In this document: in pieces, positions 1,189 through 60,912 of the stretch
Position numbering within the stretch: the stretch's first letter is position 1
Layout: every line of letters starts with the position of its first letter
Assembly: GCA_012441205.1 (NCBI GenBank)
Contig: GCA_012441205.1_4705.1
Direction: 5' to 3' (one strand)
Length of the DNA: 64,000 nucleotides
DNA from: a phage
Notes under the pieces: model-generated
Told to the model about the DNA's origin: nothing
Database searches by the model: none
What the model saw: the letters and a program-made list of their open reading frames with translations, nothing else
Translations under genes and position numbers: made by a program

Positions 1189-1200
1189 GGAAGATCCTCC

Positions 1201-1575: not shown

Positions 1576-1588
1576 GATAACCTATTCG

Positions 1589-3736: not shown

Positions 3737-4090
3737 CTAACAGCCTATTTCTGCATGAACCTTTAACGATTCGAATACATCTTGCTTCTTTATCATCGTC
3801 TTGTATAAACGTGATTGAGCAATGATCTTTATCCATTGTTGTGGATCGCGTAAATTCACATTTTCAAAACGGGGTGGGGTATTATCTCCGTCGAGTCGGA
3901 TATACCCTAAGAGCAATCCTTCATGGTCTCCTCGACGGATTTCGATATGCGGTTTGAGGAAGACATGATTGTCTGGTGGATACCAGCTTACGGTGTAGTA
4001 ATGGTTTCCTGAAACAACGAATTCGTGAACGGCTTTTGTCTCATCGTCAATGACCGCATTTACGCTGGGAATCATTAATTTTTGAAGCAT
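3737..4090 (-). CDS. hypothetical protein (117 aa)
   Basis: ORF followed by terminator hairpin; start overlaps the upstream gene's stop. Confidence 0.45.
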   Translation of the reverse strand: MLQKLMIPSVNAVIDDETKAVHEFVVSGNHYYTVSWYPPDNHVFLKPHIEIRRGDHEGLLLGYIRLDGDNTPPRFENVNLRDPQQWIKIIAQSRLYKTMIKKQDVFESLKVHAEIGC

Positions 4091-5222: not shown

Positions 5223-5333
5223 TGCATTGCCTTCCGCGAGTGTAATCAGGAAGGTAATGTAGGTTTATTTTAATCTCCATTTCGCGATGATATGACAGTC
5301 TTTATTACGTTTACCATCTGAGGGAGCATGCTC

Positions 5334-6572: not shown

Positions 6573-6714
6573 CAATGTAACGGTAAAACTTTACTGACGT
6601 TGGTTATTATTTGAAGCATAGGGCTTCACCCAGGAGTACCATCCCTTTAAGTCGTTTGTCCTCTCCTGGTTAACTGTCGTTCTCTCACAGTGCTCGACAG
6701 ACCAAAAATGCTCA

Positions 6715-6743
6715 GGCCTCATAGCCTCCTCTGGGAATGGAAC
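6715..6743. terminator. bidirectional hairpin terminator between convergent genes
   Basis: CCTCCTCTGGG-AATGGAA-CCCAGAGGAGG (11-bp stem) followed by ACTATGTTTGCC on the plus strand. Confidence 0.5.
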
Positions 6744-6765
6744 CCAGAGGAGGACTATGTTTGCC

Positions 6766-7086
6766 TTAAAATTCAACGCGACCTTTTGTCGTAAACAATA
6801 CACCTCTTTGCCAACAGAAAAGATCCTCCGATTGAGCGCAAACACGAATACCCGCATCGAATAGATGTTTTGTTCTAGCGCTTAAACAATCAGGATCTTC
6901 TACATACAACAGAAGACGTTGGCATTTATTTTGAATGCGTTCGACAAGGATGTTCTTATCGCTTAAAATAAAATGCGCGTTATCTGTTAAGTTATCGTCG
7001 GTTTCCAGCTGCTTGACAAGTTTGATTAAAATACGTAATTGCTCAAGTGTGTCATGATCAAGTGAATCACCCATGGCGTACCTCAA
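6766..7086 (-). CDS. hypothetical protein (106 aa)
   Basis: ATG at 7086 with GAGGT RBS about 6 nt upstream; lies downstream of the terminase gene after a hairpin-rich spacer. Confidence 0.45.
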   Translation of the reverse strand: MRYAMGDSLDHDTLEQLRILIKLVKQLETDDNLTDNAHFILSDKNILVERIQNKCQRLLLYVEDPDCLSARTKHLFDAGIRVCAQSEDLFCWQRGVLFTTKGRVEF

Positions 7087-7159
7087 CGTTATACGTCGTT
7101 TGTATTATAATACGCTATCGTCTCCCCGCCAGTATTAACGGGGAGTCTGCAGACTACTC

Positions 7160-24815: not shown

Positions 24816-24841
24816 GAGCAGGGGCATGAAGCCCCCTGCTC
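24816..24841 (-). terminator. intrinsic terminator after the RNAP beta-like gene
   Basis: 10-bp stem GAGCAGGGGC / GCCCCTGCTC with loop; on the minus strand it begins right after the TAA stop and is followed by GTTTATTTCGC. Confidence 0.6.
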
Positions 24842-27800
24842 TTATTTGGCGTCGTTAAAATAAATATCAACAGCTCGTTCCGTTGCGTAGAGGAGACCAA
24901 GATTCACAGTCCCAACCACTTCCGGTGAACCGATGATACGGTTAGCGATACTGGTGCCACTGAAGATAGCATCAAGGGTGTGCCCGTCTTCGGTTTTGTT
25001 CACACCATGACCCACGGAAGAGACAACGGATTTCGCTTGAGCTGCGAAGGTACCTTTATCGCCCATCCCCGCACCAAGGTCGTAACGCATGAAAATACGG
25101 ATTGCGATCTGGTTCTCGCCTAACGGATTACCGTCTATTCTCACGTTACTGTTATTGATACGCCCCGTAGTTGCTTCGTTGAGTTTCAGTTCCTTAACGC
25201 GTTTAGCTCGCGCTTTATCTGCATCACCGACGAGCGCCGCCATGGTTTCACTCATATCCTCAATCTGAGCGCGGTACAGCACATCGATCTGTACAACTTC
25301 ACCATGAACGTCAGCACGTGGGTTATACTGACTCATACGACGTAATGCTTCAACGGCTTCCTGACTCTCATCACTCAGATCGGTCGCAATCGGTTCTTCC
25401 AGTGTTGCAAGGATCGTTCGTGGTTCAACATGATCGCCGATTTTCACGAGACCACGAATGTTGAGATGGGCGTCAACGATGAGCGTACGGCTCTTAATCG
25501 ATGGTGTTACGAGACGATCGGCAAGATTGTCGAAGATATACGAACTGTCCTCGTGAGTCTCTGGAATATCCAGAATACCGACAAGAGACAGAACACCTGC
25601 GCGCCAAACAACCTGACCTGGGTTCCACCAATCGCGTTTAAAATAAAGACGATGGAAGACCACCACATCCTGATCCTTAACGCGATCCCCGACTTTATAA
25701 TCGGTAATGAGATCGTGAGGATAATACTTACCTGGTCCTTTCCCGATTATCGTACCGAGCTGGAAAACCTCTTCCCCTAACTCTGGATCGTCGTATTGTA
25801 TCGTCAGCGCAGTTTTGGTGACCTTCTTAACAACACCGTCACCTTGGGCGGCAGCTGCAAAGAGTTTACCAACACGATGCGCGATGACAGTCTCACCGCC
25901 GGTGCGCCACGGTTGTACATCGTAACCCTCAGCGGCAATCATGCGGTTGTGTTGGATCCCGACGAAGACCAGACGTTTTCCATCATCACGGTCTACAGCC
26001 GGAACAGCTAACGCTGACGTACTCATTACCGATGAGATGCCGTCTGTCTTTTCATCGAATGGTCGTGTTTCACCATACACCGACACGATATTAGCATTAG
26101 GTGCAAGGTAAGCAGAGATACCCACATCCCCACTATCTTTCGTACCCTCTGACACAATACCAACATCGGACTTGTCGTATTCACGATCACGTGCGCGTCG
26201 AAGCGATGTCTTTGAACGACCCCCGATACCGGTCATCGTTGCTTCTTCACCCTGCTTGATATCCAGCATCGGGTTGGTTTCATCGATCACGATGGACGCG
26301 CTGTCGTCGAGAATTTGGTTCCAGACACTTACCGGACTGATTGAGATTTTCTGGCGGTTTCCTTGACTGCTGTTCTCATTCTGACGAATAGCGCCAACCA
26401 GATCCTTATACACCAATTCAGCGAACTTATCGTACGTTTTAAAACGTTGGTAGTTCACATCGTTCGTGTTAGGTGCCCAATCATCCAGAAGCAGTTCAAC
26501 AGCACGCAGTAACAACATGGCGAAATCGGTAGGTTCTCCCATGTTCTGTAGCAACGTACGGCTTACCGGATCAACGAAAAGACGCTCCATGAGTTCAAGT
26601 TCGCGTAAATGGCGAACCTTAAGTCCGGCACCATCGACAACGTTAAAATAGATATCTCGATTGTCGAAAGCACCGCGAGCGTAACCGATGTAGTTACGGT
26701 ACTCGTTAAATCCGCCCAGCAACAACGTCGTCATGCGATCGTCTTTACTGAAGATCAAACTTTCGTCATCAAAGCTCACCGCGAATTCATCGGGTGCTAG
26801 ACCCATACGAGAACCGCGAGGTACCGTACGATAGTTCGCTTTAAGATGTTCTAATAACGGGGTAAGTCCACCCAGATAACTTAGAACAACACCAACCGGA
26901 ATACGTACACCCATGAATTCAAGATCGGCGGCTTCGATCGGCATCTTAGCCGCATTGATACCGAAGAAATCAGGGAACGTCCCTACAGGTGTTGGTGTTT
27001 GTCCTGACTGACAGATATAGAGCTGATTGCGTTTATCGATTGCTAAGAATTCACCCAGCGTGTTACGCGCAAACGTCAGGAGCCCTTCGGCTAACTGTTC
27101 GTTGAACCGATCTTCCCCGATGAACTCCGGTAGCGTTTTTATATCGAGACGTATATCCCAATCAGCAAATTGGATTTGGGTATAGTTGCGTGCAAGCACA
27201 GCGAAGTAATACGGGACTTTGACGGCCGGATCAAAGACGTTACCACGTTTTAACGTGGTTAAGGGTGAGGACTTATCGTAATACATCGCTGTAAGTTGGC
27301 GTGTTAACCAACGACCGGCGTTATTAACGACACGCTCTGAACGTTTAACAAACACCTTACCGTAGGCGGTACTCAACGCAACTTCGGATGATGATACCTT
27401 TCTAATAGGTTTATCAACACGTTGTTTACGCATCCGGTATTTGATGCCGTTAACGACATAAATGCCGTCCTTACGAACCTTCGGCAACATCACCGGGAAC
27501 GTGGTTGGGACACCGCCTACAGGGGCCAGTTTAATCGTGATGACTTGATAATCCCCCATCACGTCAACAACATCTTCAACTTTATATCCCGTGACAGGGT
27601 AACCTGCCTGTTGTACGGCAACAACAGCGGCTGCGATGTCCTTTTGCATCACGTGTTCAACGTAATGTTTATCCCACACCGCAAGCGTCGATTTACATAG
27701 GCTCTTATCGACGATAACATCCGCTTCCGGCATAACCTTTGCTGGCGCTAATTTCGCGGCTTTTGGTTTAACTTCAACATACTCAGCAAGTGTTAATCCA

Positions 27801-29188
27801 GAACCGTCGGGTGCTTCGATTTCATGGATGGCGTCAGCATTACGCATCGCTGCTTTATATTGGACGCCGCTTAACTGACCCGCATCAGCCAGATCGCTCG
27901 CGCGTACCAACACCGCATCCGATAACGACTGAATATATTCACCGTGCGTTTTTGGTAACGTTGCCGCGTCAAAGACATCAACCTTTTCTTCTTCGGTATC
28001 GTCGGTAACGACTTCGAAGAGATCGTCGGTAATGTCCTGATCTTCATCAGGTTGAAAATCCGGCTGTACTTCTACCCCGGGTACTTCACGGACATCTTCG
28101 AACGAGCGTTCTACAATGGCGTTCCACGCATCAGCGTCATCGTCTTCATCCGACCCACCAACCAACTCCGCTTCTAACTCATCGGAATCAAGAACAGTGG
28201 CCAGATCCTCACCGTTAGGAAGCACGACGTCGCGATCATCGTACTCTGCATCCGGGCTGTCCGCAAGAATATCTCGCTCTTGACGAAGAACCTGTTCCTC
28301 TTCTTGTTTCTGTTCTTCTTCATTCGCGCTCTGCGACCATAGACGTGTTACCGCCATCATCCAACGACGCTGGAAGGTTTCGAGTGTCGTTTTATCGAGT
28401 TCTTCCCCTTCCTTTACAAGCCCGGTACGCCATTCTTCCAACAGGCCGAGATTCAGCGTAAAGAAGTACACACCGTCTGTAAATACAACGTTAAGCTTAT
28501 CCAGCGTGGCTCTGTCTAACGAAGCCATTGTGCTGTTCTCACGATCGGTTCCCAACCAGCGGAAGAAGTCAAAGAACGACAGCTCCTCCGGCGTGGCGAA
28601 ATTCATGAGGTTGTTACGGGTCGGTGCCTGTTGCGTGGTACGCATCAACGAAATCTTCGGCAATGTTGACGGTATACGGAACAACAAAAAGTGTTGGCGA
28701 TCGCTTTGCTGCGCGATTTCGTTGGCTTTCGACCAAATTGTTTTACGTACGTTGAACCATTCATCATACCAACGGGTGAGCGTTGGACGATAGATGTACA
28801 TGTGGTTAAGATGTGCGTAGTTAGCAACGATCTGAGCGTTGATGTTTTTCTCCACCGTACTTAGATCGGTAACCAAACGAAAACGACGATGTGACGCACG
28901 ATAATCCAATTTCGCTCGTGGGAGCTGGAATCGCTGATCACGTCGAGGTGCACCCTGTTTGGTTGCGAGATCATCAGCAAACGAAATCCATAGTTGAGCA
29001 CTTTCTTTACTCAACATGTATTCGTTTTCTGGAGGACCTATCAATGAAGGATCCGTTGCGGTGTAATGATAGACAGCATAACGTGGCAGCTGCAATAGCT
29101 GCACTAAACGTAATCTCGGTGACAATAGCTCTTGGTATCGTCTGACGCCAAACTGTCGGTAGTAATCAAGGTATTTAAGTTTTGCCAT
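24842..29188 (-). CDS. multisubunit RNA polymerase beta-like subunit (divergent)
   Basis: 1448 aa. GIGGRSK...DVGIVSEGTKDSGDVGI parallels the bacterial beta region GPGGLTRER...GRVCPIETPEGPNIGL, and GMGDKGTFAAQAKS...DAIFSGTSIANRIIG parallels GDKMAGRHGNKGVIS...DIVLNPLGVPSRMNIGQ (E. coli beta recalled from memory). Contains a long acidic insertion. GGAG RBS 8 nt before the ATG at 29188. Confidence 0.65.
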   Translation of the reverse strand: MAKLKYLDYYRQFGVRRYQELLSPRLRLVQLLQLPRYAVYHYTATDPSLIGPPENEYMLSKESAQLWISFADDLATKQGAPRRDQRFQLPRAKLDYRASHRRFRLVTDLSTVEKNINAQIVANYAHLNHMYIYRPTLTRWYDEWFNVRKTIWSKANEIAQQSDRQHFLLFRIPSTLPKISLMRTTQQAPTRNNLMNFATPEELSFFDFFRWLGTDRENSTMASLDRATLDKLNVVFTDGVYFFTLNLGLLEEWRTGLVKEGEELDKTTLETFQRRWMMAVTRLWSQSANEEEQKQEEEQVLRQERDILADSPDAEYDDRDVVLPNGEDLATVLDSDELEAELVGGSDEDDDADAWNAIVERSFEDVREVPGVEVQPDFQPDEDQDITDDLFEVVTDDTEEEKVDVFDAATLPKTHGEYIQSLSDAVLVRASDLADAGQLSGVQYKAAMRNADAIHEIEAPDGSGLTLAEYVEVKPKAAKLAPAKVMPEADVIVDKSLCKSTLAVWDKHYVEHVMQKDIAAAVVAVQQAGYPVTGYKVEDVVDVMGDYQVITIKLAPVGGVPTTFPVMLPKVRKDGIYVVNGIKYRMRKQRVDKPIRKVSSSEVALSTAYGKVFVKRSERVVNNAGRWLTRQLTAMYYDKSSPLTTLKRGNVFDPAVKVPYYFAVLARNYTQIQFADWDIRLDIKTLPEFIGEDRFNEQLAEGLLTFARNTLGEFLAIDKRNQLYICQSGQTPTPVGTFPDFFGINAAKMPIEAADLEFMGVRIPVGVVLSYLGGLTPLLEHLKANYRTVPRGSRMGLAPDEFAVSFDDESLIFSKDDRMTTLLLGGFNEYRNYIGYARGAFDNRDIYFNVVDGAGLKVRHLRELELMERLFVDPVSRTLLQNMGEPTDFAMLLLRAVELLLDDWAPNTNDVNYQRFKTYDKFAELVYKDLVGAIRQNENSSQGNRQKISISPVSVWNQILDDSASIVIDETNPMLDIKQGEEATMTGIGGRSKTSLRRARDREYDKSDVGIVSEGTKDSGDVGISAYLAPNANIVSVYGETRPFDEKTDGISSVMSTSALAVPAVDRDDGKRLVFVGIQHNRMIAAEGYDVQPWRTGGETVIAHRVGKLFAAAAQGDGVVKKVTKTALTIQYDDPELGEEVFQLGTIIGKGPGKYYPHDLITDYKVGDRVKDQDVVVFHRLYFKRDWWNPGQVVWRAGVLSLVGILDIPETHEDSSYIFDNLADRLVTPSIKSRTLIVDAHLNIRGLVKIGDHVEPRTILATLEEPIATDLSDESQEAVEALRRMSQYNPRADVHGEVVQIDVLYRAQIEDMSETMAALVGDADKARAKRVKELKLNEATTGRINNSNVRIDGNPLGENQIAIRIFMRYDLGAGMGDKGTFAAQAKSVVSSVGHGVNKTEDGHTLDAIFSGTSIANRIIGSPEVVGTVNLGLLYATERAVDIYFNDAK

Positions 29189-29191
29189 GGG

Positions 29192-29380
29192 TTAGGCTCC
29201 ACGAGGTCCCGTTAAGTTGCGTAATAGGAACGCAACCGTATCGTAACCAATATCGATGTTGAATTTATTTTTACCACTTACCCAGAAAGCTCGCTTCTTG
29301 TGCGAGTTGGTAATTTCGTCAATAGCTTCCATGGAATAAAGAACGTTAACCGAGACCGTATCACCGTCGAACCTTATCTT
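29192..29380 (-). CDS. predicted exon 2 of the RNAP beta-prime-like N-terminal subunit gene (contains the DFDGD-type catalytic motif)
   Basis: Minus-strand frame between an in-frame TAG and the TAA at 29192-29194 translates to ...AKIRFDGDTVSVNVLYSMEAIDEITNSHKKRAFWVSGKNKFNIDIGYDTVAFLLRNLTGPRGA-stop. FDGD (codons at 29360-29371) matches the beta-prime NADFDGD active site. It has no ATG start, so it is not in the ORF track. The 5' boundary (3' splice site) is approximate. Confidence 0.55.
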   Translation of the reverse strand, partial: KIRFDGDTVSVNVLYSMEAIDEITNSHKKRAFWVSGKNKFNIDIGYDTVAFLLRNLTGPRGA

Positions 29381-29450
29381 CGCCTCAGGTCGCTACGCTG
29401 AGACCGCCTGCATGGATACGTACATCACAGGCTGCTTGCACTTTCATGCA

Positions 29451-29756
29451 AGAGGAGACTATATCAAACCGGCAGCACAACCTGCTACGGTAACCTACAC
29501 TTCGAAGACGCTCGTCCTCTACAGGGTGGTAAATCCCTTAGTCGTTGAACCTGCGTTGTTTCCCATTCTTGCAAACAAGAATGCCGTATTGCTACGCAAC
29601 AACCAGGCTGCTGATTGCCCATTGTTTCGCACCTTAGCACCGCTTACGCGGCTTTTCTTTCAGCCTAAGCCTCTTACGGAGTTAGTGCATCTCAACTGTT
29701 GTTTCTGCCTTTCGGCACCTCATGGGTCGTTGAGCTTTAGGGGTTCCCAGCAATTC
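29451..29756 (-). ncRNA. group I intron catalytic core (P3-P9 region)
   Basis: P, Q, R and S elements as above; GNRA-loop hairpins flank the core (CCCGAAAGGG near 29775-29790 and CTTGCATGAAAGTGCAAG near 29435-29452). Confidence 0.7.
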
Positions 29757-29805
29757 GTAGGTTTTTCAAGCACTCCCTTTCGGGAATACCGGACTCATTA
29801 TTAGC

Positions 29806-31278
29806 TTATTTATTCAAGTATCTGAAATCCCACTTATCTTTACGTCGTTTATCGCACTTAATGTCAGGATGATTAACACGATGCCTAATAGTTGTTGCCG
29901 ATAGCTGGCTGAGATTCTCAGCAGATCGTGCGCCAAGAACAACGAGTTTTGTGTCGTCTGGACGCGTAACTTCTACTGCCCGATAATGCTTACGTAACAC
30001 ATCACGCCAATATTCACGACGTTCTGGTTCAGCATACTCAAGCATGTAACCGTTAACATCTACTAAACCGTAGCTTTCGTTTAATCGAGAGGTAGCGGCT
30101 GGTTTACTAATACCGATTGCTTTAGCCGCATCGACCACGGTTTTATACGGGGTCTCATTACCGTCTCTATCTACAACCACAATGAAATCTGGACGTGAAT
30201 CGAGTAGCTGCTGTCTGCGTTCGACGGCTTGTTGATGAAGCACCATGTTAACGTGTTCGAACCCGTAACCTTCTGGGCCACGCCATCCTGGATTGTTGTT
30301 CGCTCGATAAAGTATCGTCGATGATTTCACTCCAGTCTGACGCGATGCCTCGTTTGCGCTATGAACAACCGTGGTAGAGCCATCAGGATGATATATCCGT
30401 ATCTGGTTCATTATACCGGAACCAATGAAGTTACCATCGGCTGATTTAATGTCCGGCCATGGTTGCGGGTCATCTTTGAATTTAACCACCCAGCGGTTGT
30501 TAAACAGCTTAACTTTTCGAACATGTTTGCCTAATGTCGTATCCGTAACACCTGCGACCACTGACGCTTGTGTAATGCTCAGGTACTCAGTAACGGTATC
30601 GTTCCAAGTATCCCAGAGCAGAACCGGTTTATTGTCGTCACGTAAACCATGTTCGATAGCATGCAGGACATTACGACTTCTGGTTGCCCATTCCAGATTG
30701 TCAAGAGAATAGTTCCACTTATCAGCATCAAGATGATTAACGTCCATCTTATCGACATTAGCCGGATATTCCCGCCACGCCAACATCAAGCAGCGATGTA
30801 AAACCTTAGTTCTCGTTGTATCTCGACAATCGTGACGTAGACTAATGAATACGTAGTTATCCTTTTTCGGATACGATCTGCATTCCTGTCCATCCTTGCG
30901 GGAGATAACTCGCCCTTTCTCATTTATCAGATAACGAGTATGTCCAGGAATAACACGATAACCAGGGTACTTAGCGATCTCATAAGCAGGCTCGAAACGA
31001 TAGGATAAGTTATCAACATCCCAATTAGATTCGTCGCCGTCAACAAACATCGCTTTGACGTACTTCTGTGTTTCAATATCAACCAGGATGTTTTTGTGTG
31101 CGATACAAATCAATGCTGGGATATTGAATTCGCGACCAGCTAAAGTAACAGTGTCGCCGTTTCTCGGTATCGCGACGTGGGTATCACGATACCGTAAGTT
31201 TCCATAGCCGTCTATTTCAATCCAGCTCAGAAACGGAATAGATATAAATTCTTTTTCAGATACTCGCCATTTAAACAT
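29806..31278 (-). CDS. HNH homing endonuclease (intron-encoded)
   Basis: 490 aa; HNH motif VNHLDADKWNYSLDNLEWATRSRNVLHA and an N-terminal NUMOD4-like segment YPGYRVIPGHTRYLINEKGRVIS; own ATG at 31278 with AGGTG RBS; located in the 5' peripheral region of the intron. Confidence 0.8.
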   Translation of the reverse strand: MFKWRVSEKEFISIPFLSWIEIDGYGNLRYRDTHVAIPRNGDTVTLAGREFNIPALICIAHKNILVDIETQKYVKAMFVDGDESNWDVDNLSYRFEPAYEIAKYPGYRVIPGHTRYLINEKGRVISRKDGQECRSYPKKDNYVFISLRHDCRDTTRTKVLHRCLMLAWREYPANVDKMDVNHLDADKWNYSLDNLEWATRSRNVLHAIEHGLRDDNKPVLLWDTWNDTVTEYLSITQASVVAGVTDTTLGKHVRKVKLFNNRWVVKFKDDPQPWPDIKSADGNFIGSGIMNQIRIYHPDGSTTVVHSANEASRQTGVKSSTILYRANNNPGWRGPEGYGFEHVNMVLHQQAVERRQQLLDSRPDFIVVVDRDGNETPYKTVVDAAKAIGISKPAATSRLNESYGLVDVNGYMLEYAEPERREYWRDVLRKHYRAVEVTRPDDTKLVVLGARSAENLSQLSATTIRHRVNHPDIKCDKRRKDKWDFRYLNK

Positions 31279-31344
31279 ATTAACACCTATTAAATAGGAA
31301 ACATCATATTAATAGGTTTAAAAGTTAAAAATGACAGAAAATGG

Positions 31345-32820
31345 CTAAATTGAATCACCACCAAGTCCGGCGAGGTATGGCGCAGGGACAATAGTCGTTT
31401 CTACGAACGAAGCATTAGGTAACCAGTCGGGGTATTCCCATGCGATAAATCGTTCATCCGTTATTGGTTCCCAGTTACTATCCAGTTCGGTTTTCGGTTT
31501 TGCGGCGACGGTTGTACGTGCGTAACAGGTTAACGGGATAACGGATTGCATACCTGATACCGGATAACGTGTTACCATCGCAGCCAGGTTATTCCAGTAC
31601 TTATATCCGGCAATATAGATAAGCTCGGTGTAAGTAATGGGGTGAACATCCGCGCCAGGTTTATTCAACATCTCCGGGGGTAATTCACTCATGTCACGGA
31701 ATAACCGAAACGAATCGTTGTTCACATAGACGAGGCAAAGATATCGTCCATTGACCATGATAGGCTCGTTACGCACGCCAGGATCGCTTAAGGTGTTCAG
31801 TAAACGTTCTATTCCGTCCCATGTTGTAAAGTCATCGATGGTGTCTGGATCAAGCGTGACGCGCTCACGTTCCATCGTTTCGGTATCAATAAGTTCAACT
31901 TCTGTAACATCACGGACAAATATTTCCTGCAAAATACCGGTACGTAACGCATGTTGCGTTACTGGGAGAGCGGCTTTACTCATCTGGTATAACCCTAACT
32001 GAACCGCGGTACAGGAAGGCTGGTTAGGCGACCCTAATACCTCCGTTGTGGGGTTAATTGCCGAAATAACGTTACGGGTTGAGTTCCAAACGCGACGTGA
32101 ACCAAACTTACCTTGGAAGATCCCTTTCTTACCCTGGAACATATCCAACAGTAAAGCGTAGATATCGTTGAATGTTCTCTGTAAGCTCCAGCGCTGGCCG
32201 TCGTAAACGGGATCGGAATAATCTTTTAATCCATCAGGGACGGTGTTAGAAATTGCAAGGAAACGACGATACAACTCCGTGATTTCTTGCTCGCTTTCAT
32301 ACCCACCTTCTTTTACTTCTATTTCACGTAAGCCTGCAGGCAATACCAGTAAGTGACGGGTCATCGCTTTGAACATGTTCTCTTCGACAACTTTAATTCG
32401 TAGCTCTCGTTGAGCTGAACCCGTTGAAACGAACTTGATATCCGCGACGTGTTGTGCAAAGAACCCGTATCCTGTTTGTCCTGTTAATGCATCAGACGCA
32501 ACGAAGTCGCGTTGTTCGGGATCCCACCGAGCGTACGCCTTCCCCGACATGATATCGCCATAGAGGTGTTTTAATCGAATGAGACGGTCGTAAATGACAG
32601 GATGCAGGATTTCAACCTTGCATTCAATCACCGCAAATCGACGGTCTCGATCTTCACTACCCGCACTACCAAAGATGGTGTAAGAATAGAAACCATCATC
32701 GTGGAAATTACCGGTGCTTGGGTCACGAATGCTCATGCTCGTGATCTTGGGGAGAAAACGTAACTGCTGTTTATCGAGGTGTAAAATACTAATATTAAAC
32801 GGCTCTCTGACTTTAGCCAT
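31345..32820 (-). CDS. RNAP beta-prime-like N-terminal subunit, exon 1 at ORF level (last about 57 codons are probably intron sequence)
   Basis: Start moved to the ATG at 32820 (MAKVREPF..., AGAGGAG RBS about 9 nt upstream). MFQGKKGIFQGKFGSRRVWNSTRNVISAINP matches the beta-prime [27 protein letters not shown] region, and TRYPVSGMQSVIPLTCYA matches NRAPTLHRLGIQAF...HPLVCAA. The ORF then runs into a stop at 31345 without the expected DFDGD; the likely 5' splice site is near 31516. Confidence 0.65.
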   Translation of the reverse strand: MAKVREPFNISILHLDKQQLRFLPKITSMSIRDPSTGNFHDDGFYSYTIFGSAGSEDRDRRFAVIECKVEILHPVIYDRLIRLKHLYGDIMSGKAYARWDPEQRDFVASDALTGQTGYGFFAQHVADIKFVSTGSAQRELRIKVVEENMFKAMTRHLLVLPAGLREIEVKEGGYESEQEITELYRRFLAISNTVPDGLKDYSDPVYDGQRWSLQRTFNDIYALLLDMFQGKKGIFQGKFGSRRVWNSTRNVISAINPTTEVLGSPNQPSCTAVQLGLYQMSKAALPVTQHALRTGILQEIFVRDVTEVELIDTETMERERVTLDPDTIDDFTTWDGIERLLNTLSDPGVRNEPIMVNGRYLCLVYVNNDSFRLFRDMSELPPEMLNKPGADVHPITYTELIYIAGYKYWNNLAAMVTRYPVSGMQSVIPLTCYARTTVAAKPKTELDSNWEPITDERFIAWEYPDWLPNASFVETTIVPAPYLAGLGGDSI

Positions 32821-33065
32821 GGAGACACTCCTCTTTACCACCACCGGCTGCGGCGGTATCATCTGAACACACGAGAGACGTAATGGGTGATGGCGTCACC
32901 CATCGCTTCCTTGCTTGAGGCGAGGAAGTTATTAGGTTACGTACCTGCCTGATTTTATCAGGTGGGCGATGTGTGAAGTTACGCTTCAACATTATCAATG
33001 CCGAAGGTAAACTTCGTGCATCACGTTCCAACGTAACATGGGAACGTATCGAACTGGAGGTATAC

Positions 33066-36000
33066 ATGGTAGATAAAACCCGTGTTGAGGGTGATGATAA
33101 TTGGGACAACTGGGATGAAGACTTCTCCCTGGATCTCGATTTTAACGAACCCAAAGACGATCGTAAACCGATAACACGCTTTGCGATAGGAGCGGTTAAA
33201 GGTGCTGCTGAGGATCTTACTTCCTACGAAAGAATGAAGGAGATCGCCAGAAACGCATTGCCTAAGGGCTACAGCGACGGTATGGATCTTATTGATTCCG
33301 CCGTCGGATCCACGAAGGAACTATACAATGAAGCCGTTCGTGACGTTCTTCCTAAGGTCCAAAGCTCAAAACGGTTAGCCGCACAACTGACCAAGAAATA
33401 CCGTGCGAGCATGCCCGATTTCTCGAAGAAAATTCTTGAACAATGGGAGCGAGAAGCCAAGGAAGAAGACGAACGTAAACAAGCTGAAGAAACCCTTCGT
33501 CAACGCATGGCGAGCGCGGGGGACGATGAGATCGCCCGCAAGGTTGCCGAGGCATTAGGCGAATCAGCAAACCAAAGCGCGGATCAGTTCGCTGAACAGC
33601 AAGCGAAAGAGAGTATCCGTGACGATATCGCTGACAAACGGTACGCTGTAACCAACAAACAAATGAGCGCGATGCAAGAAGGCGTCGCCAAGATGGTTGG
33701 TTTCAACAACGAATTCGCTGCACGCTACATGCGTAAAAGCCTGGAACTGAAATATCGTTCCTTAGCGATTCAACGTGCAAGTTTTGATCAGCATAAAAAG
33801 TTAGCCGAAGTCTATATCGGTTTATTACAAAACATCCAGAAGAATACGGCTTTACCTGATGCGGCTAAAGCAAAAATGTCGGAAGAATTCCGCCGTAGCG
33901 CGTACCAACGTTTCTTTGGTAATGCGTTAGATGCGATGAGTTCTTTCGAGAACCGTTTCTTTGCCGATGTTAAGAAGAACCTTGCCACCAACGCATTAGG
34001 CGCTTTAAAAGGTGTCGTGTCCGGCGCAAACGATGCGTTATACGGTTTAAACGAAGCGCGTGACTCGATGTCCATGATGGACGGGATGGGGTCAGAAGGC
34101 GATATTAAGGAAATGCAAGGAAAGATGTTGGGTCAGTTCATTGGCTCAACTGTCGCGCCGTGGATGGCTAATAAAGGCAGGATGGCGTTACGCGATTTAG
34201 CAAAACGTCACCCCAATGCTAAATTCGCTAGCGCATTAAAAGCCGTGGATCAAGGTGGTGAGGCTGCCGCTTACACGACGCGTAATCTCGGTAAACTGCT
34301 CCAGGAAGATATTCGTAAAAACGAATTCAATCTTAGCGATCCGTTTTACAAGCAATTGTTACGCGGTGCAGGGCGTTGGGCGTTCAACATGGACAGCGGA
34401 CGTAACTTCCGCGTGATGAACGACACCGCTGAAACACTGGCGGAGCAAACATCTTTCGACGGTTTAACTTACCGCAGTATCAATGAAGTTATTCCTGGTT
34501 TTCTTGCACGCATTCTGAAAAGCAGTGAAGGTATCCGCACCGGAAACAGCGATCCTGACTACGAGGTCTATGACGGCATCAGCGGACAATTCGTGTCTCA
34601 GCGCACGCGTGAACAAAGCGTCAATGACACGCTGTTTAACAAACGTACATTTGGTTATTACGCCAGCCGTTTCAACGAGGTTATCTCGGTCATCGATCCC
34701 GATAAGCAATTATCGGAAAAAGCCAGAAAGGCGCTGGCCAAGCAGTTGGCGCGAGATAGCGACGCGAACATCGCATTCGACCCGGCTCGTTTTACGGATG
34801 AAAGCAACTTCGATCGTAGTATTGACCGCGACGCTATTAAGGAACTTTCCACGTACTTTCGTGACCGTTACGGTATTCGTGATGATGTCAACGATAAGGG
34901 CGAACGTCATCAGGTCATTGGAAACCGCGGGCAATATTACACGGAACGTAACCGAGCCGATCTTCGTTACGGTCATCTGAAATCTTTACAACCGGATATC
35001 CAGCGTAACCTTAACCTGCTGAAACGTACTGGTGACGTCCAATATCTGGAACGGATTGGGATTGTAACGAGAAATAGCGACGGAAGCTACTCGGTTAATC
35101 ACGATCGGTATTTCTCTGAAATCGATCAATACATCGACCGACCGGAGTACGCTGACCGCGGCGATGTCAATACGCGATTAACCGCTCAGGAAACAAGAGC
35201 GCTGGCGCTGGGTTATCGTGACGCAAAACCATCAGCTGGTGACGTCCAAAATGTCGGCCTGCCGAACATCGGTCGTAAGGCTGCTGGAACAGTAACCGTT
35301 GATGAAAACATCGGCTACGATAAATGGTGGAACGACACAGGTGTTATCACCACATCGCTTGAAGAACAGAATCGAGCGTGGCAAGAGCTTTATCTCGAGG
35401 CGTTGTCCGAAGCATCCGAACAACGTGTTGAAATGCTTGCGCTGCTGAAAGCCATTTCTGAGAAAGACTGGTCTAATAACGTTTCGCTGGATGGTGAAGA
35501 TGTACCTGAAGGTACAGCACCCATTTCATTTATCGATCGTGCCAAACAAAAACTCGGCGGACGCAACCTGTTTAAAGGCGGCCGCAATCTCCTCTGGAAA
35601 GGAATTAAAAATACCGCACGTTTAGGTGTTAAAGGCGCACGCTGGGGTGCAGAACGCACGTTGGGTAGTTTGGTAAATTCTGGCCGACGCATTATCAATT
35701 TCAACCGCTTCGTGTTCGGCGCATTATCCAAGGTTGATCAGGTTCCGTTTGACATTTACGTTAAAGGGGAATCCCAACCACGCATACTGGCTGCCAAACT
35801 TCGTCAGGGGTTATACTTCGACGAAGCGACAGGAAAAGCCGTAAAACGGATGAAGGATATCAAAGGCCCACTCGTTGATGCGGATGGAAACATCGTAATC
35901 AGCAACGAGGATATCGAGAAAGGGTTGGTCACTCGCGCTGGTCGTGCCTTTGAGAATTCAGGACTTAAAGCATGGGCACGTGAAGGTCTTAATGGAATAA

Positions 36001-39000
36001 CGACGGCATTAAGTCTCCCACGGATGTTAAAACGCGGTGCGGTTGAGATCTACAAACAGCTTGACAAAACACCCGACGTTTACGTCAAGGGAGAATCAAC
36101 GCCTCGTCTGTTGTCCATGGTGTTAGCAGCGGGTGGGTATTTCCGTCGCTCGGATGGACAAGTCATCAAAAATCTTGAAGACATCGATGGTGATGTTGTT
36201 GATGCACAAGGTAACGTCGTACTTACGCTTGCCGACATGCAGAAAGGACTTGTCGATAAATACGGTAAAGCGATTCGTCGTTTAAAAGAAAAGCTCATCA
36301 ACTTCGGTGTAAAAGCTTTTACGTTACCGTTAACGTTGCTACGTAAGACAAAGGACATCCTTAAAGCCCTTCCAGGTAAAACCGTTAACGGTCTACGGCG
36401 GATGGGATTAAATTTCCAATCACCCGACGCATTACTGGTGGGAACAACGTCGAGCATGGTAGATCGCCTCGATGCTATTTACCAGCTTCTTGACCAGCGT
36501 ATGCCGGGAGGTGATAAGGATTACCGCGATTGGAATGGCGATGGTGTTCGAGAAGGATCGTTGGAAGACCTGAAACGTAAGCGTGAAGCCAAGGAAAACG
36601 GTAAGGATGACATCGGCAAAGATTCCAATAAAGGAGAAGAAAAGGAGAAGAAACGAGGGTTACTCGGAAGCCTTTTCGATATGCTCGGTGATACCGCAAT
36701 AGGTAAACGTCTCATGGCGAGTCCGCTTGGAAAAATTCTGGGTGGTCTTGGGGCGGTGTTAAGCGGCGGTGCGTCGTTAACTGGGTTGTTGGGCAAAGGT
36801 CTCATTAGAGGAACCGGCGCGCTGGTCAAGGGAGGACTAAGTGCGGCAGGATGGTTAGGACGTGGTGCGTTAATGGCGGGTGGGGCCGCGTTGAACGCCG
36901 TTGGTGGGTTATCGGGATTAGGTGCATTCCTCATCTCACCTGTTGGGCTTGCTATCGCTGGCGGTGCGTTGGCTGCTTATGCTGGATGGAAGATCTATCA
37001 GCATTTCGCCGAGAAGCCTGACCCGATGCAGAAGCTCCGTCTTATTGCATACGGTGCAAAAGGGGATGATAAAGACTTCAATAAGAAGCTGCTTGCGACA
37101 GAAACATACCTCACCGACCATGTGGTCATGACCGGGGATACCATCGGATTCGATCCGAAAGCCGATTCTGAAAAGATTCTCGAAATCTGGGAATTGTCTC
37201 TGGAAGATTCCGACCGAATGAACGAATGGAAACGCTGGTATCTGCATCGTTTTATTCCTGTTTTCGCTCGTGCGTACAAACTCTGGAAAGAGCATATGCC
37301 GGACGAGAAGAAATACATGGAAATGGATAAATATCCGAACGGTGAGAACAAAGTGAAATGGTCGGAAGCGTTTATCTGGCCTTCCGATAGTCCTGATGGT
37401 CCGTATTACGTCGAAGCTAACCCGTTGGGTTCTTCTGGTGCGACGCGTTATATTGCTGGTCAAGACGTCAAAACCTTGATGCTGAAACAGCTCGAAGCCA
37501 TCAAGAAAGAGTACCAGAATCAGATTAAGCAATACACTCATGATGAGGCTATTGCTGATTGGTCACGGATGTCTGACACACAACGTAAATCCGTTGCGCC
37601 TAACGCATTACGTGGTCAGAAAGCGTCATTACGTTTTAACGATAAACGTTACAACAGCGCTGGTGCTAAAGGACGACAGAAACTGGATGCAACCGCGGTT
37701 ATTGAAAGCGTAGACCGTCGTGGTAGAAAATGGGTTGCCGGTGGATACATCGATGAACTCACCAGTCTCCGTGTTCGTGCGTACGGTATTAAGGTTCCGT
37801 TGTTAAGTCAGATAAAAGTGCTGATGGAACTCGAAGACGCTGTAGAACCTGGCGTTGTCGCTGAAGGTAAAGGTGTTAAATACGGTGGCGATCTTGTCGC
37901 GCTCTACAAGAAATTCGCGACGAAGTTCGGAAGAGACGTTAACAGCAAGCATGATCAGGATATCTGGTTTGCTTGGATGAACAACCGTTTCCTGCCCGTC
38001 TTTTTAACCTATTACCAACAAGTTAGCGACATGGGCGGTCAAGGACTTCTGTCCGACGTGGTACAGAACCTGAAAGACAGCCAACGTTGGGAAATCGGTG
38101 AAGAACTTGTCGCAGCGCAATACCGTGATGAGAAAGGTACACTGCAGCCCGTATGGTCGTGGAACAGTTGTGGTTTCTCCGGTACTGAAGCTAACACCAC
38201 CAGCAGTTCAACAAAGAGTCAGCTCGATCTGTTAAAAGAATATGCGGATAAAGAGAAGGTTCGTGAGAAGAACGCGGAAGCATCGCAAGAGGATACCGAT
38301 AAATTATCGAAGATCCAAGAGCTGATGATGAAGCAGGCTGGGTACGAGAAGAAAGACGGTGTCTGGCAGAAGAAATCTCGCATTACCGGCGGGATGAGTA
38401 ACTCCGAAGCGAATTACAACCCCAATGGGAATAAGGTCGGTGCAAGCAGCTTTACTGCTTCAGCTACTTCCAGTGCGGGATTGGGGTCAACCGGCGATCT
38501 TACCGGATTGCCTAACATGGGCTTACAGAAACCTGCAACGGGGCCAGGTCCCGAAGCTGGACGTCGTGCGCTTGTTAAATCCGCTGTGAAACGCGGTATT
38601 ACCGATCCAATGGAAATGGCGATGTTCCTTGCAAACATCGAACATGAATCGGGGAACTACACTCACGTACGTGAGGGGAACTATAAGACACCAGAGCATC
38701 TTAAACAGGTCTTCCCTTACAAATTCCGTGACGTGCAGGATGCAGCGCAGACGATTAGCATGGGGCCGGAAGCGGTGTTCGAACGCGTGTACGGTAATCG
38801 TAAAGACTTAGGGAACACGCAGAAAGGAGACGGGGCGAAGTATTTAGGACGTGGCTTCATTCAGGTTACCGGTAAAGCTAACTACGCTCGTCTGTCCAAG
38901 ACCTTGAATAAAGATCTTGTCAGCGATCCATCATACCTGGAAACGCCGGAAGGTGCGGCGGAAGGTAGTGTCGCGTGGTGGCTCAACCGAGGCAATGTGT

Positions 39001-52170: not shown

Positions 52171-52220
52171 TGTAAACCTCATTAATCATTGTCCGTATGA
52201 TAGCCCAAAGTTGTACGGTA

Positions 52221-60879: not shown

Positions 60880-60912
60880 TTTCTGTTTCCTTCTTGGGTT
60901 TTGCACAAGTTT

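What the first reader, a model, noticed from the sequence alone, without database searches (positions are those of the whole stretch)
24842..32820. Split multisubunit RNA polymerase genes next to a giant lysozyme-bearing virion protein suggest a phiKZ-like jumbo phage
The 505-aa ORF carries the beta-prime [23 protein letters not shown]-type block (here GKKGIFQGKFGSRRVWNSTRNVI) and the 1448-aa ORF carries two beta-subunit blocks, one aligning to the GPGG...ETPEGPNIGL region and one to the KMAGRHGNKG...VPSRMNIGQ region. A beta-prime N-terminal fragment encoded as its own gene beside a beta-like gene, followed by a 2221-aa protein with a lysozyme domain, matches what I recall of phiKZ-type phages that carry their own virion-packaged RNAP. 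If so, the rest of the genome should encode a nucleus-like shell protein and a tubulin; neither is recognisable in this window.
Basis: partly seen in the sequence, partly recalled or inferred. Interest (0 to 1): 0.6.

Follow-up and report, generated by a model that had tools for sequence, protein, structure and literature searches.

The report
Intron-split virion RNA polymerase operon

Summary
The window is 93-97% identical to, and collinear with, the nucleus-forming jumbo phage Escherichia phage Goslar. The 1448-aa ORF is the phiKZ gp178-type beta-like subunit. The "505-aa" ORF is the gp180-type beta-prime N-terminal subunit. The divergent 2252-aa ORF is the gp181-type giant virion protein with a GH19-like lysozyme domain.

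A 1982-nt group I intron (31353..29372, minus strand) carries a 490-aa I-HmuI-like HNH endonuclease gene in its P1 loop. It separates the first catalytic Asp (GGD) from the rest of the motif (FDGD), which lies in a 59-codon exon 2 (29371..29195). Exon 2 has no start codon of its own ahead of that motif.

The boundaries are fixed by intron-less relatives that lack exactly these 1982 nt. Their 548-aa protein matches the predicted spliced product across the junction, and one PHROG profile runs continuously across both exons. About a quarter of homologue clusters stop at the same point, including phiKZ-type phages (gp179/gp180).

Close relatives show every presence/absence state of this intron and of a second one in the beta gene, a site that is empty here. 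This is a new member of a known kind. Splicing and nuclease activity are inferred, not shown.

The parts
31354..32820 (-). Exon 1 of the virion-RNAP beta-prime N-terminal subunit gene (phiKZ gp180 type): 489 codons ending ...LAGLGG-D489, with last nucleotide U. The mechanical ORF (32862..31345, 505 aa) runs into the intron for two codons (S, I) before a TAG.
   Evidence: phrog_2986 profile positions 3-484, E 1.7e-162. The start at 32820 has SD AAGAGGAG and matches the gene calls of P0001. The end is fixed by the intron-less allele L022.
29372..31353 (-). Group I intron, 1982 nt. It begins UCAAUUUAGCC... and ends ...GAAGAUAAGG, so the terminal nucleotide is G (omega-G).
   Evidence: The intron-less relatives L022, L029-L034 lack exactly this stretch. 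The ORF-less relative L024 has a 510-nt version at the same junction. Rfam RF00028 scores 57.8 bits against a cut-off of 50.
31339..31356 (-). 5' strand of the extended P1 helix: exon GAU (31356-31354) plus intron nt 1-15.
   Evidence: Base-by-base check: G-C, A-U and U.G for the exon; then U-A, C-G, A-U, one A.A mismatch, U-A; then UUAGC/GCUAA and four A-U pairs. Goslar has different but mutually complementary sequences (GGAAAGGCUA/UAGCUUUUCU) at the same two places. L024 has CCUUGAAAAA/UUUUUCAAGG as a simple hairpin.
29791..29811 (-). 3' strand of P1, with the internal guide sequence GUCC (29794-29791) immediately upstream of P2. It starts at the stop codon of the HNH ORF.
   Evidence: GUCC followed by the P2 hairpin is conserved in the window, Goslar and L024. 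In phiKZ-type U5, AAGUCC pairs with exon GGAU plus U.
29806..31278 (-). Homing-endonuclease gene: 490 aa, an I-HmuI-like HNH enzyme lying in the loop of P1.
   Evidence: Pfam HNH_3 at 5.7e-9 (35.9 bits, cut-off 24.8), with weak NUMOD hits. phrog_59 HNH endonuclease at 1.5e-28. PDB 1U3E I-HmuI at 6.7e-4. 32% identity to the intron ORF of phiKZ-type U5, E 6e-33. dN/dS 0.11 against Goslar.
31286..31316 (-). Hairpin CCUAUUAA(15 nt)UUAAUAGG. It covers part of the HNH gene's Shine-Dalgarno sequence (AGGUG, 31288-31284).
   Evidence: Read from the sequence. It is conserved, with a changed loop, in Goslar. A similar hairpin lies before the U5 ORF. A regulatory role is inference.
29435..29790 (-). Ribozyme core. 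Helices (5' strand / 3' strand): P2 29790-29782 / 29777-29769; P3 29763-29756 / 29499-29492; P4 29752-29747 / 29614-29609; P5 29743-29741 / 29620-29618, with a large P5 extension at 29734-29629; P6 29608-29549; P7 29543-29539 / 29461-29457; P7.1 29538-29523; P7.2 29519-29504; P8 29490-29469; P9 29452-29435.
   Evidence: Rfam alignment, RNAalifold consensus, and a check that all listed pairs are canonical. P7.1/P7.2 suggest subgroup IA; this is inferred from the Michel-Westhof scheme.
29372..29434 (-). 3' tail of the intron: P9.1 (29432-29406), P9.2 (29404-29382) and omega-G at 29372.
29192..29371 (-). Exon 2 of the beta-prime N gene: 59 codons, FDGDTVSVNVLYSMEAIDE...LTGPRGA, followed by TAA. 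No ATG, GTG or TTG lies in frame between the upstream stop (29395-29393) and FDGD.
   Evidence: phrog_2986 profile positions 485-538, E 1.5e-10, continuing directly from exon 1. Identical to the C-terminus of the intron-less protein P0001. Frame read.
24842..29188 (-). Beta-like subunit gene (phiKZ gp178 type), 1448 aa. Its ATG lies 3 nt after the exon 2 stop.
   Evidence: phrog_3148 E 0, full length. A profile of 7 homologues matches bacterial beta chains, with Thermus 1IW7_C at 6e-11 and 40 of 41 hits being beta.
25981..25982 (-). Unoccupied second intron site in the beta gene, between codons D1069 and G1070 (AVDRDD|GKRLVF).
   Evidence: L022 has a 1583-nt intron with an HNH ORF here, and L024 and L030 have a 461-nt ORF-less intron; the L022 and L024 copies reach the RF00028 gathering score (L030 was not scanned). 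It is the same site as the PhiPA3 gp210 intron (PMC11620839).
24816..24841 (-). Terminator-like hairpin ending the operon.
   Evidence: 9-bp stem with 7 G-C pairs followed by a T run. A terminator is annotated at the same place in Goslar.
32973..39731 (+). Divergently transcribed giant virion protein (phiKZ gp181 type), 2252 aa, with a GH19-like lysozyme domain at residues ~1867-2091 (window ~38571-39245).
   Evidence: phrog_3201 at 1.4e-295, and phrog_181 endolysin at 2.9e-52. PDB 9EOI at 8e-24 and 4OK7 at 4e-19. Syntenic with KTN4_221, annotated 'structural peptidoglycan hydrolase'.

Best explanation
The interval is the virion RNA polymerase (vRNAP) operon of a Goslar-like chimallivirus, transcribed on the minus strand from ~32.9 kb to the terminator at 24.8 kb. 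It encodes the beta-prime N-terminal subunit and then the large beta-like subunit.

The beta-prime gene is interrupted, between the first and second aspartates of the Mg-binding triad (GGD|FDGD), by a 1982-nt group I intron. The ribozyme core occupies the 3' 430 nt of the intron. An I-HmuI-like HNH homing-endonuclease gene sits in the loop of a long P1 helix.

Proposed mechanism. P1 pairs the exon end GAU with the guide sequence GUC(C) at 29794-29791, giving U.G at the splice site. Exogenous G attacks after U31354. The freed exon 1 then attacks after omega-G 29372, joining ...GGT GGT GAT to TTC GAC GGT GAT. The product is a 548-aa subunit carrying GGDFDGD. Unspliced mRNA yields a 491-aa product that lacks two of the three catalytic aspartates.

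The endonuclease is expected to nick intron-less alleles of co-infecting relatives at this motif and so spread the intron by homing.

Shown here: gene identities, exact intron boundaries, ribozyme family, helices, and an intact endonuclease gene under purifying selection. Inferred: splicing in vivo, nuclease activity and target, and virion packaging (by orthology with phiKZ gp178/gp180).
For: Genome identity: 93-97% nucleotide identity and collinearity with Goslar.

One gene in two pieces: phrog_2986 positions 3-484 fall on the 505-aa ORF and positions 485-538 on the frame after the ribozyme.

Exact boundaries: L022 and six other Goslar-like contigs lack precisely 31353..29372. The intron-less protein P0001 (548 aa, a cluster of 235 member sequences) is identical to the predicted spliced product across the junction and to its C-terminus, and ~99.6% identical overall. 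KTN4 and Proteus phage 10 read GAD|FDGD and GGD|YDGD continuously.

Splice-site rules are met: U at -1 in all intron-plus alleles, and G as the last intron nucleotide.

Ribozyme: RF00028 at 57.8 bits, E 4.7e-12. All of P1-P9.2 are canonical pairs, and the RNAalifold consensus reproduces group I topology.

P1 with the ORF in its loop: three relatives have three different but internally complementary P1 extensions. Cognate duplex energies are the lowest in every row and column (-11.8, -16.1, -19.7 kcal/mol). The ORF-less L024 shows P1 as a plain hairpin.

Beta-prime identity: profile against PDB gives AR9 beta-prime at 4e-18 and about 70 bacterial or plastid beta-prime or gamma chains. The AF2 model has pLDDT 83.8, and the 50 best of 575 Foldseek hits (E<=1e-3) are all RNAP beta-prime or gamma chains.

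Beta identity.

Endonuclease.

Exon 2 cannot be translated on its own, because no in-frame start codon precedes FDGD.
Against: No RNA or protein data for this phage were available, so splicing is not demonstrated. An ONT-cappable-seq study of phiKZ reported no evidence of splicing at the homologous gp179 locus under its conditions (PMC10914365), although other papers treat gp179 as intron-encoded (PMC12676376, PMC11512511).

The exon part of P1 is only 3 bp here (4 bp in L024 and U5). The window's own P1 duplex energy is not better than shuffles (144 of 500 shuffles reach it) because it is A/U-rich. No convincing P10 was found.

The three ribozyme copies are 93% identical, so there is no covariation in the core (0 compensatory pairs).

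The Rfam score is only 8 bits above the gathering threshold, because of the large P5 and P7.1/7.2 insertions.
Confidence: 0.9

Rival explanations
1. One reading: the 505-aa ORF is a complete, separately encoded beta-prime N-terminal subunit, the HNH gene is an unrelated free-standing gene, and no RNA processing is involved.
For: phiKZ-type beta-prime really is split into N- and C-terminal genes (PMC7598289). Goslar's RefSeq record annotates the 502-aa ORF as its own CDS.
Against: The ORF stops two codons after the first Asp of the catalytic triad. The remaining FDGD plus 55 conserved residues lie 2 kb downstream in a frame with no start codon. Homologues without the insertion are 540-550 aa and continuous. 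A ribozyme above the Rfam threshold lies exactly between the two pieces.
Confidence: 0.03
2. The intron is a decayed relic that no longer splices. The beta-prime N gene would then be a pseudogene, and the vRNAP would be non-functional or supplied in some other way.
For: There is no direct splicing evidence. phiKZ long-read data did not see splicing at the homologous locus (PMC10914365). The exon part of P1 is short, and the window has lost 49 nt of P8 relative to Goslar and L024.
Against: Exons are under strong purifying selection against Goslar: exon 1 dN 0.004 and dS 0.25, and exon 2 has no amino-acid change. All core helices are intact. The P8 loss is confined to a peripheral loop. Goslar, with the same arrangement, is a viable cultured phage (PMC12908238). 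vRNAP is described as the enzyme that transcribes early genes in this family (PMC10612078, PMC11620839). No second gp180-type gene appears in the window. The rest of the genome was not seen.
Confidence: 0.05
3. The intron splices but its endonuclease is inactive or domesticated (for example as a maturase or regulator), so the element is no longer mobile.
For: ORF-less copies of the same intron persist in L024, so the ribozyme does not need the ORF. The ORF is far more diverged than the ribozyme: dS 0.82 and dN 0.09 between window and Goslar, against near-identity of ribozyme and exon 2.
Against: The ORF is intact at 490 aa in both phages, with dN/dS 0.11 and the HNH motif kept (DVNHLD..N..LDNLEWATR..N). 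The presence/absence polymorphism, and the fixed synonymous differences at the insertion site between intron-plus and intron-minus alleles, look like ongoing homing. The PhiPA3 HNH enzyme gp210, encoded in the intron at the beta-gene site, is an active nickase (PMC11620839).
Confidence: 0.2

Closest known systems
Escherichia phage vB_EcoM_Goslar, gp205-gp206-intron-gp207 and gp204 (NC_048170 207224-222175)
   Same: The gene order and all four genes are the same. Nucleotide identity is 93% over the interval and 96-98% elsewhere. The intron is at the same junction, and the record already carries an 'Intron_gpI' ncRNA feature.
   Different: The first ~40 nt of the intron and the segment after the HNH stop differ, yet remain mutually complementary. 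The window lacks 49 nt of P8. The HNH proteins are only 86% identical, with a mosaic highly diverged stretch. The Goslar record does not join the exons and labels both subunits 'beta'.
phiKZ gp180 / gp179 / gp178 / gp181 (seen here in Phikzvirus U5; the intron-less form in KTN4)
   Same: Same operon and same neighbour. The intron is at the identical codon boundary (GAD|FDGD). The HNH ORF is homologous (32% identity, E 6e-33). The guide sequence GUCC is the same, the ORF sits upstream of the core, and P7.1/P7.2 are present. [quoted passage not shown]
   Different: The exon proteins are only ~38% identical. The U5 ORF is 357 aa against 490 aa, and the U5 ribozyme lacks the large P5 extension.
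PhiPA3 gp210 intron in the vRNAP beta gene (gp211/gp209), Birkholz et al. 2024 (PMC11620839)
   Same: It is a mobile group I intron with an HNH nicking endonuclease, inserted at an active-site motif of a vRNAP subunit. Goslar-like relatives L022, L024 and L030 carry an intron at that very site, after DRDD.
   Different: It is in a different gene and at a different site from the intron in this window. In the window that beta-gene site is empty.
I-HmuI / SPO1 DNA-polymerase intron (PDB 1U3E)
   Same: An HNH homing endonuclease encoded in a phage group I intron. It is the best solved-structure match of the ORF.
   Different: Similarity is weak (E 6.7e-4). The ORF here is nearly three times longer, with extra N- and C-terminal regions.

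Membership tests
Multisubunit RNAP beta-prime, N-terminal half (phiKZ gp180 type) | Sequence-profile similarity to beta-prime chains | tested here: met
   A profile of 42 homologues against PDB gives AR9 beta-prime at 4e-18 and bacterial, plastid and cyanobacterial beta-prime or gamma chains at 5e-9 to 4e-7. The single sequence gives 0.002. Pfam finds nothing.
Multisubunit RNAP beta-prime, N-terminal half (phiKZ gp180 type) | Mg-binding aspartate triad (NADFDGD-type motif) | tested here: met
   It is present only in the spliced product: GGD489-F-D491-G-D493. All three Asp are invariant in 42 homologues. The motif is absent from the 505-aa ORF as such.
Multisubunit RNAP beta-prime, N-terminal half (phiKZ gp180 type) | Beta-prime fold | tested here: met
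   The AF2 model of the 99.6%-identical intron-less P0001 has pLDDT 83.8. Foldseek against PDB gives 575 hits at E<=1e-3, and the 50 best are all RNAP beta-prime or gamma chains (7S00_d at 2.4e-14). TM-scores are only ~0.3 because the chain has several domains.
Multisubunit RNAP beta (phiKZ gp178 type) | Profile similarity to beta, with conserved blocks in the same order | tested here: met
   phrog_3148 E 0. A profile of 7 homologues gives Thermus beta at 6e-11, with four collinear segments. The single sequence finds no beta chain in the PDB (only one unrelated hit, E 0.31), and Pfam finds nothing.
Group I intron | Covariance-model match above the curated threshold | tested here: met
   RF00028 at 57.8 bits against 50, E 4.7e-12, full model 1-253.
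Group I intron | U at the end of the 5' exon paired with G of a guide sequence; G as the last intron nucleotide | tested here: met
   U31354 pairs with G29794, and omega-G is at 29372. All intron-plus alleles have GAT at -1, while all seven intron-minus alleles have GAC.
Group I intron | Precise absence in an intron-less allele that restores a continuous reading frame | tested here: met
   L022 and L029-L034, and P0001.
Group I intron | Covariation supporting the core helices | tested here: inconclusive
   Only three near-identical copies were available, giving 0 compensatory pairs. Compensatory change is seen only in the P1 extension.
Group I intron | Self-splicing with guanosine | not testable with these tools
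   This needs in vitro transcription and splicing, or RNA-seq.
HNH homing endonuclease (I-HmuI-like) | HNH catalytic domain | tested here: met
   Pfam HNH_3 at 35.9 bits against 24.8. phrog_59 at 1.5e-28. 1U3E at 6.7e-4.
HNH homing endonuclease (I-HmuI-like) | Cuts or nicks the intron-less allele near the insertion site | not testable with these tools
   This is inferred from the location, the polymorphism and PhiPA3 gp210 (PMC11620839).
phiKZ-like nucleus-forming jumbo phage (Chimalliviridae) | Best genome-level match is a member of the group | tested here: met
   Goslar at 93-98% over the whole 64 kb. The tail sheath carries Pfam phiKZ_gp29PR.
phiKZ-like nucleus-forming jumbo phage (Chimalliviridae) | Encodes chimallin and PhuZ | not testable with these tools
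   Neither was recognised in the window; PHROG or Pfam scans covered most but not all of the larger ORFs, and no dedicated chimallin search was run. Goslar's PhuZ lies 543 bp before the window start. The rest of this genome was not available.
phiKZ gp181-type giant virion peptidoglycan hydrolase | A protein of more than 2000 aa with a C-terminal lysozyme-like domain, divergent from the vRNAP operon | tested here: met
   with synteny in six phages. Virion location was not tested.

The most novel reading that the evidence does not exclude
In Goslar-like coliphages the vRNAP operon may be a site of ongoing, reciprocal intron warfare. Two homing-endonuclease introns target the catalytic motifs of beta-prime (GGD|FDGD) and beta (DRDD|GKR), and they are distributed in a complementary way. 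The window and Goslar are armed at the first site and empty at the second. L022 is the reverse. L024 carries both introns without nucleases. L029 and L031 have neither. Intron-less alleles carry fixed synonymous changes at the target: GGG GAC TTT against GGT GAT TTC. Each phage could therefore damage the other's virion polymerase gene in mixed infection. This would be a natural E. coli/Salmonella counterpart of the engineered PhiPA3-phiKZ interference. The endonuclease gene, lodged in the P1 loop, would be exchanged independently of the ribozyme.
Probability: 0.4. Interest if true: 0.5.

Novelty: new member of a known kind. Interest (0 to 1): 0.3.

Why it matters
For annotation, the beta-prime N subunit of Goslar-type phages should be a joined 548-aa CDS. 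The 502-505-aa ORF now deposited lacks two of the three catalytic aspartates, and both subunits are labelled 'beta'.

For biology, the phage's early transcription enzyme would depend on RNA self-splicing. The set of close relatives, with every combination of two introns with or without nuclease genes, is a ready-made system for testing whether intron endonucleases act as weapons between co-infecting jumbo phages, as shown once for PhiPA3 and phiKZ.

None of this is a new kind of element.

Tried and rejected
- **Pfam on both polymerase proteins:** no hit even at E 0.1. Single-sequence PDB search with the 1448-aa protein gave nothing relevant. Family profiles were needed.
- **First P1 guess:** I placed the guide sequence near the intron's 5' end (GUCAUU at ~31334). 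I rejected this because Goslar has GGCAAA there.
- **Rfam's 'P2' for the window** has four non-canonical pairs. I reinterpreted it as the P1 3' strand plus guide sequence.
- **P10:** no convincing pairing between exon 2 and the region 5' of the guide sequence.
- **Close relatives of the HNH protein in IMG/VR:** the search returned only Goslar and one 32% relative.
- **Ribozyme 17-mer search:** 11 loci, of which only L018 (the same contig as L024) was a true relative; L014 was Goslar itself.
- **Spliced sequence for structure prediction:** I used the intron-less P0001 instead.
- **Ceyssens 2014:** two look-ups failed because the paper is not held.
- **The 224-aa 'RNAP beta' ORF:** no PDB or Pfam support.
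- **Chimallin:** not recognised in any ORF that was scanned (most, not all, of the larger ones); no dedicated search was run.

Full report
**What is at the coordinates**

The minus strand carries, in order of transcription:
- an ORF at 32862..31345 (505 aa; likely true start ATG 32820);
- an ORF at 31278..29806 (490 aa);
- a 620-nt stretch with no long ORF;
- an ORF at 29188..24842 (1448 aa);
- a strong terminator-like hairpin at 24841..24816.

The plus strand carries a divergent ORF at 32973..39731 (2252 aa).

**Whose genome it is**

Megablast of the interval finds only Escherichia phage vB_EcoM_Goslar, at 93% identity and full length. The whole 64-kb window is collinear with Goslar 182379..237307 and then 1..9141, at 95-98% identity. 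Goslar is a 237-kb jumbo phage, Goslarvirus. The literature held here describes it as nucleus-forming, with the chimallin shell protein ChmA (PMC12908238). Goslar's PhuZ gene ends 543 bp before the position that corresponds to window base 1.

**The two polymerase proteins**

Pfam finds nothing in either protein. Family-level evidence is nevertheless clear.

The 505-aa ORF is phrog_2986 (1.7e-162) and the 1448-aa ORF is phrog_3148 (E 0, full length); both are annotated as RNA polymerase subunits.

For beta-prime, a profile of 42 homologues hits the beta-prime N-terminal chain of the AR9 non-virion RNAP at 4e-18. It then hits about 70 bacterial, plastid and cyanobacterial beta-prime or gamma chains at 5e-9 to 4e-7. 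An AlphaFold2 model of the intron-less homologue has mean pLDDT 83.8. Against the PDB it gives 575 Foldseek hits at E<=1e-3, and the 50 best are all RNAP beta-prime or gamma chains.

For beta, a profile of seven homologues hits bacterial beta subunits, with Thermus at 6e-11; 40 of 41 hits are beta. Four segments align collinearly.

**The giant neighbour**

The 2252-aa protein is phrog_3201. Residues ~1867-2091 carry an endolysin/GH19-like domain (phrog_181 at 3e-52; PDB 9EOI at 8e-24 and 4OK7 at 4e-19).

The arrangement of giant protein, divergent from beta-prime N, followed by beta, recurs in KTN4 (species phiKZ), RAY, RSL2, OBP, SPN3US and Proteus phage 10. In KTN4 the three genes are annotated as a structural peptidoglycan hydrolase and two virion-associated beta/beta-prime-like proteins. 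They correspond to phiKZ gp181, gp180 and gp178. Assignment to the virion polymerase rests on this orthology and was not tested here.

The 490-aa ORF between the two polymerase genes is an HNH endonuclease (Pfam HNH_3 at 5.7e-9; phrog_59 at 1.5e-28; best solved structure I-HmuI 1U3E at 6.7e-4). Directly after it, Rfam finds a group I intron at 29821..29435 (57.8 bits, cut-off 50, E 4.7e-12).

The frame that opens after the ribozyme reads RPEAKIR-FDGDTVSVNVLYSMEAIDE...LTGPRGA*, and its stop lies 3 nt before the ATG of the beta gene. The 505-aa ORF ends ...LAGLGGDSI*. The same PHROG profile covers positions 3-484 on the first piece and 485-538 on the second. This is one gene in two exons.

**Exact boundaries**

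Intron-less homologues read straight through: KTN4 as APLGAD-FDGDTVSF, and Proteus phage 10 as LLGGD-YDGDTMS.

A Goslar-like IMG/VR contig (L022) aligns with the window up to 31355 and again from 29371, with one unaligned base between. It therefore lacks exactly 31353..29372. Six further Goslar-like contigs do the same.

Their product, P0001 (548 aa, a cluster of 235 member sequences), is identical to my predicted spliced protein across the junction and to the C-terminus.

The resulting coordinates are:

| Feature | Coordinates (minus strand) | Note |
|---|---|---|
| Exon 1 | 32820..31354 | 489 codons, last base U |
| Intron | 31353..29372 | 1982 nt, last base G |
| Exon 2 | 29371..29195 | 59 codons, then TAA |

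The first aspartate of the invariant D-F-D-G-D triad (D489) is the last codon of exon 1. D491 and D493 are in exon 2. Exon 2 has no in-frame ATG, GTG or TTG before FDGD, so it cannot be made separately.

**Architecture of the intron**

An ORF-less version of the same intron (510 nt) sits at the same junction in contig L024. There the 5' end is a plain hairpin: exon GGAU pairs with GUCC, followed by CCUUGAAAAA/UUUUUCAAGG.

In the window, the guide sequence GUCC lies at 29794-29791, directly upstream of P2. Exon GAU pairs with GUC, giving U.G at the splice site. Intron nt 1-15 pair with the 17 nt that start at the HNH stop codon, including UUAGC/GCUAA.

Goslar has quite different sequences at both places, and they again pair with each other (GGAAAGGCUA/UAGCUUUUCU). 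Cognate 5'/3' combinations give the lowest duplex energy in every row and column of the 3x3 comparison.

The endonuclease gene therefore lies in the loop of an extended P1. phiKZ-type U5 shows the same layout with the same GUCC.

Downstream lie P2, P3, P4, P5 with a ~105-nt extension, P6, P7, P7.1, P7.2, P8, P9, P9.1 and P9.2. All are canonical pairs in the window. P7.1/P7.2 point to subgroup IA; this is my inference from the standard classification.

A hairpin at 31316-31286 covers part of the HNH gene's Shine-Dalgarno sequence and is conserved in Goslar. A role in limiting translation is inference.

The weak points are these. Exon pairing in P1 is only 3 bp. The window's P1 energy is not better than shuffles (144 of 500). 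No P10 was found. The near-identical ribozyme copies give no covariation in the core.

**Is the endonuclease gene alive?**

Window and Goslar copies are both 490 aa. They have dN/dS 0.11 and keep the HNH motif.

The gene is much more diverged than its surroundings. It shows dS 0.82 and dN 0.09, with a mosaic stretch where dS exceeds 1.5. The flanking polymerase genes show dS 0.18-0.25 and dN 0.003-0.004, and exon 2 shows dS 0.03.

The gene is 32% identical to the intron ORF of phiKZ-type U5 at the same site (E 6e-33).

**How widespread the insertion site is**

Of 120 homologue clusters returned, 34 lack the D[FYW]DGD motif. About 31 of these end at or within a few residues of ...G[AG]D, right before FDGD. 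U5 is interrupted at the identical boundary, with a stop directly after GAD. Vibrio phage pir03 is interrupted six nucleotides further on (GADFD|GD).

Papers held here call phiKZ gp179 an intron-encoded homing endonuclease within an RNAP operon (PMC12676376) and list gp180 among intron-containing genes (PMC11512511). One long-read study saw no splicing evidence at that locus (PMC10914365). Splicing at this site is therefore widely assumed, but it is not documented in the texts I could read.

**A second, empty site**

In L022, L024 and L030 the beta gene is interrupted after AVPAADRDD. In L022 the insert is a 1583-nt intron with an HNH ORF; in L024 and L030 it is a 461-nt ORF-less intron. The L022 and L024 copies reach the RF00028 gathering score; L030 was not scanned.

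This is the site of the PhiPA3 gp210 intron, whose nuclease nicks phiKZ gp178 (PMC11620839). In the window and in Goslar the site (25982|25981, D1069|G1070) is empty.

Across ten Goslar-like sequences, the main combinations occur:

| Sequence(s) | Beta-prime site (GGD\|FDGD) | Beta site (DRDD\|GKR) |
|---|---|---|
| Window, Goslar | Intron with nuclease | Empty |
| L022 | Empty | Intron with nuclease |
| L024 | Intron, no nuclease | Intron, no nuclease |
| L030 | Empty | Intron, no nuclease |
| L029, L031 | Empty | Empty |

L032-L034 also lack the beta-prime intron; their contigs end before the beta site, so it could not be scored.

Intron-plus and intron-minus alleles differ by fixed synonymous changes right at the junctions. 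At the first site all seven intron-minus alleles read GGT GGG GAC|TTT, while intron-plus alleles read GGN GGK GAT|...|TTC. This is the pattern expected from homing with co-conversion, from target-site resistance, or from both. I did not test which.

**Verdict**

The gene model needs correcting: it is a mobile group I intron inside the catalytic motif, not a simple gene split. The system is a near relative of a published phage and of the phiKZ gp178-gp181 locus, so it is a new member of a known kind.

The only moderately new points are:
- the exact exon join;
- the placement of the nuclease gene in the P1 loop;
- the natural series of intron states among close relatives.

Noticed in passing
window 25981-25982 (minus strand, beta gene codons D1069|G1070): An unoccupied insertion site for a second group I intron. 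It is occupied in close relatives: L022 has a 1583-nt intron with an HNH ORF, and L024 and L030 have a 461-nt intron without an ORF. It is the same site as the PhiPA3 gp210 intron. The flanking codons differ systematically between intron-plus and intron-minus alleles.
   Followed up: partly
window 46313-46987 (minus strand): A 224-aa ORF in phrog_3233, annotated 'RNA polymerase beta subunit' (1.1e-65); it corresponds to Goslar gp196. It has no Pfam or PDB sequence match. It is probably another fragment of a split polymerase (perhaps the phiKZ gp149 type), 17 kb from the operon.
   Followed up: partly
window 29476-29477 (minus strand, P8 loop of the ribozyme): The window lacks a 49-nt two-hairpin extension of P8 that is present in both Goslar and L024. 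Next to it, a double change (A to G and A to C) creates a new G-C pair in the shortened P8.
   Followed up: partly
window 30330-30980 (HNH ORF residues ~100-315): Divergence of the endonuclease gene from Goslar is mosaic. Residues ~100-250 show dS above 1.5 and 64-80% amino-acid identity. The flanks are 90-100% identical, and the ribozyme and exon 2 are almost unchanged. This suggests the nuclease gene recombines independently of the ribozyme.
   Followed up: partly
window 54810-54864: The window runs straight across the two ends of the Goslar GenBank record, and this 55-bp segment matches both the last and the first bases of that record. The record's ends therefore look arbitrary or overlapping rather than being physical genome ends.
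   Followed up: no
window 60357-60886: A ~530-bp stretch with no megablast match to Goslar, although both flanks match at 96%. It overlaps a 417-aa ORF (59653..60906, minus strand) that has no PHROG or Pfam hit.
   Followed up: no
window 29376-29378 and 29792-29794 (minus strand): RNAalifold pairs the guide sequence GUC with a GAU (GAC in Goslar and L024) lying 4 nt before the 3' splice site, which mimics the exon 1 end. This could be chance or an alternative pairing; it remains unexplained.
   Followed up: no
L005 (Vibrio phage pir03) 7500-9060 and 10450-12000: pir03 has an intron in the same catalytic motif, but 6 nt further downstream (GADFD|GD). It has at least one more group I intron in its beta gene. 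Different intron lineages therefore target the same few codons.
   Followed up: partly
window 14844-16916 (+), 7160-9391 (-), 47725-49215 (-), 50644-52182 (-), 62358-63965 (-): Context genes typical of phiKZ-like phages: a tail sheath with Pfam phiKZ_gp29PR (2.8e-56), the large terminase (from the Goslar annotation), a UvsX-like recombinase, an RNase H-type ribonuclease, and an SbcC-like protein.
   Followed up: partly
L011 (IMGVR_UViG_3300021254_000020) 1179-1710: An unrelated 266-kb viral contig, picked up by the ribozyme 17-mer search, carries a group II intron (RF02004 at 91 bits, RF00029 at 43 bits).
   Followed up: no
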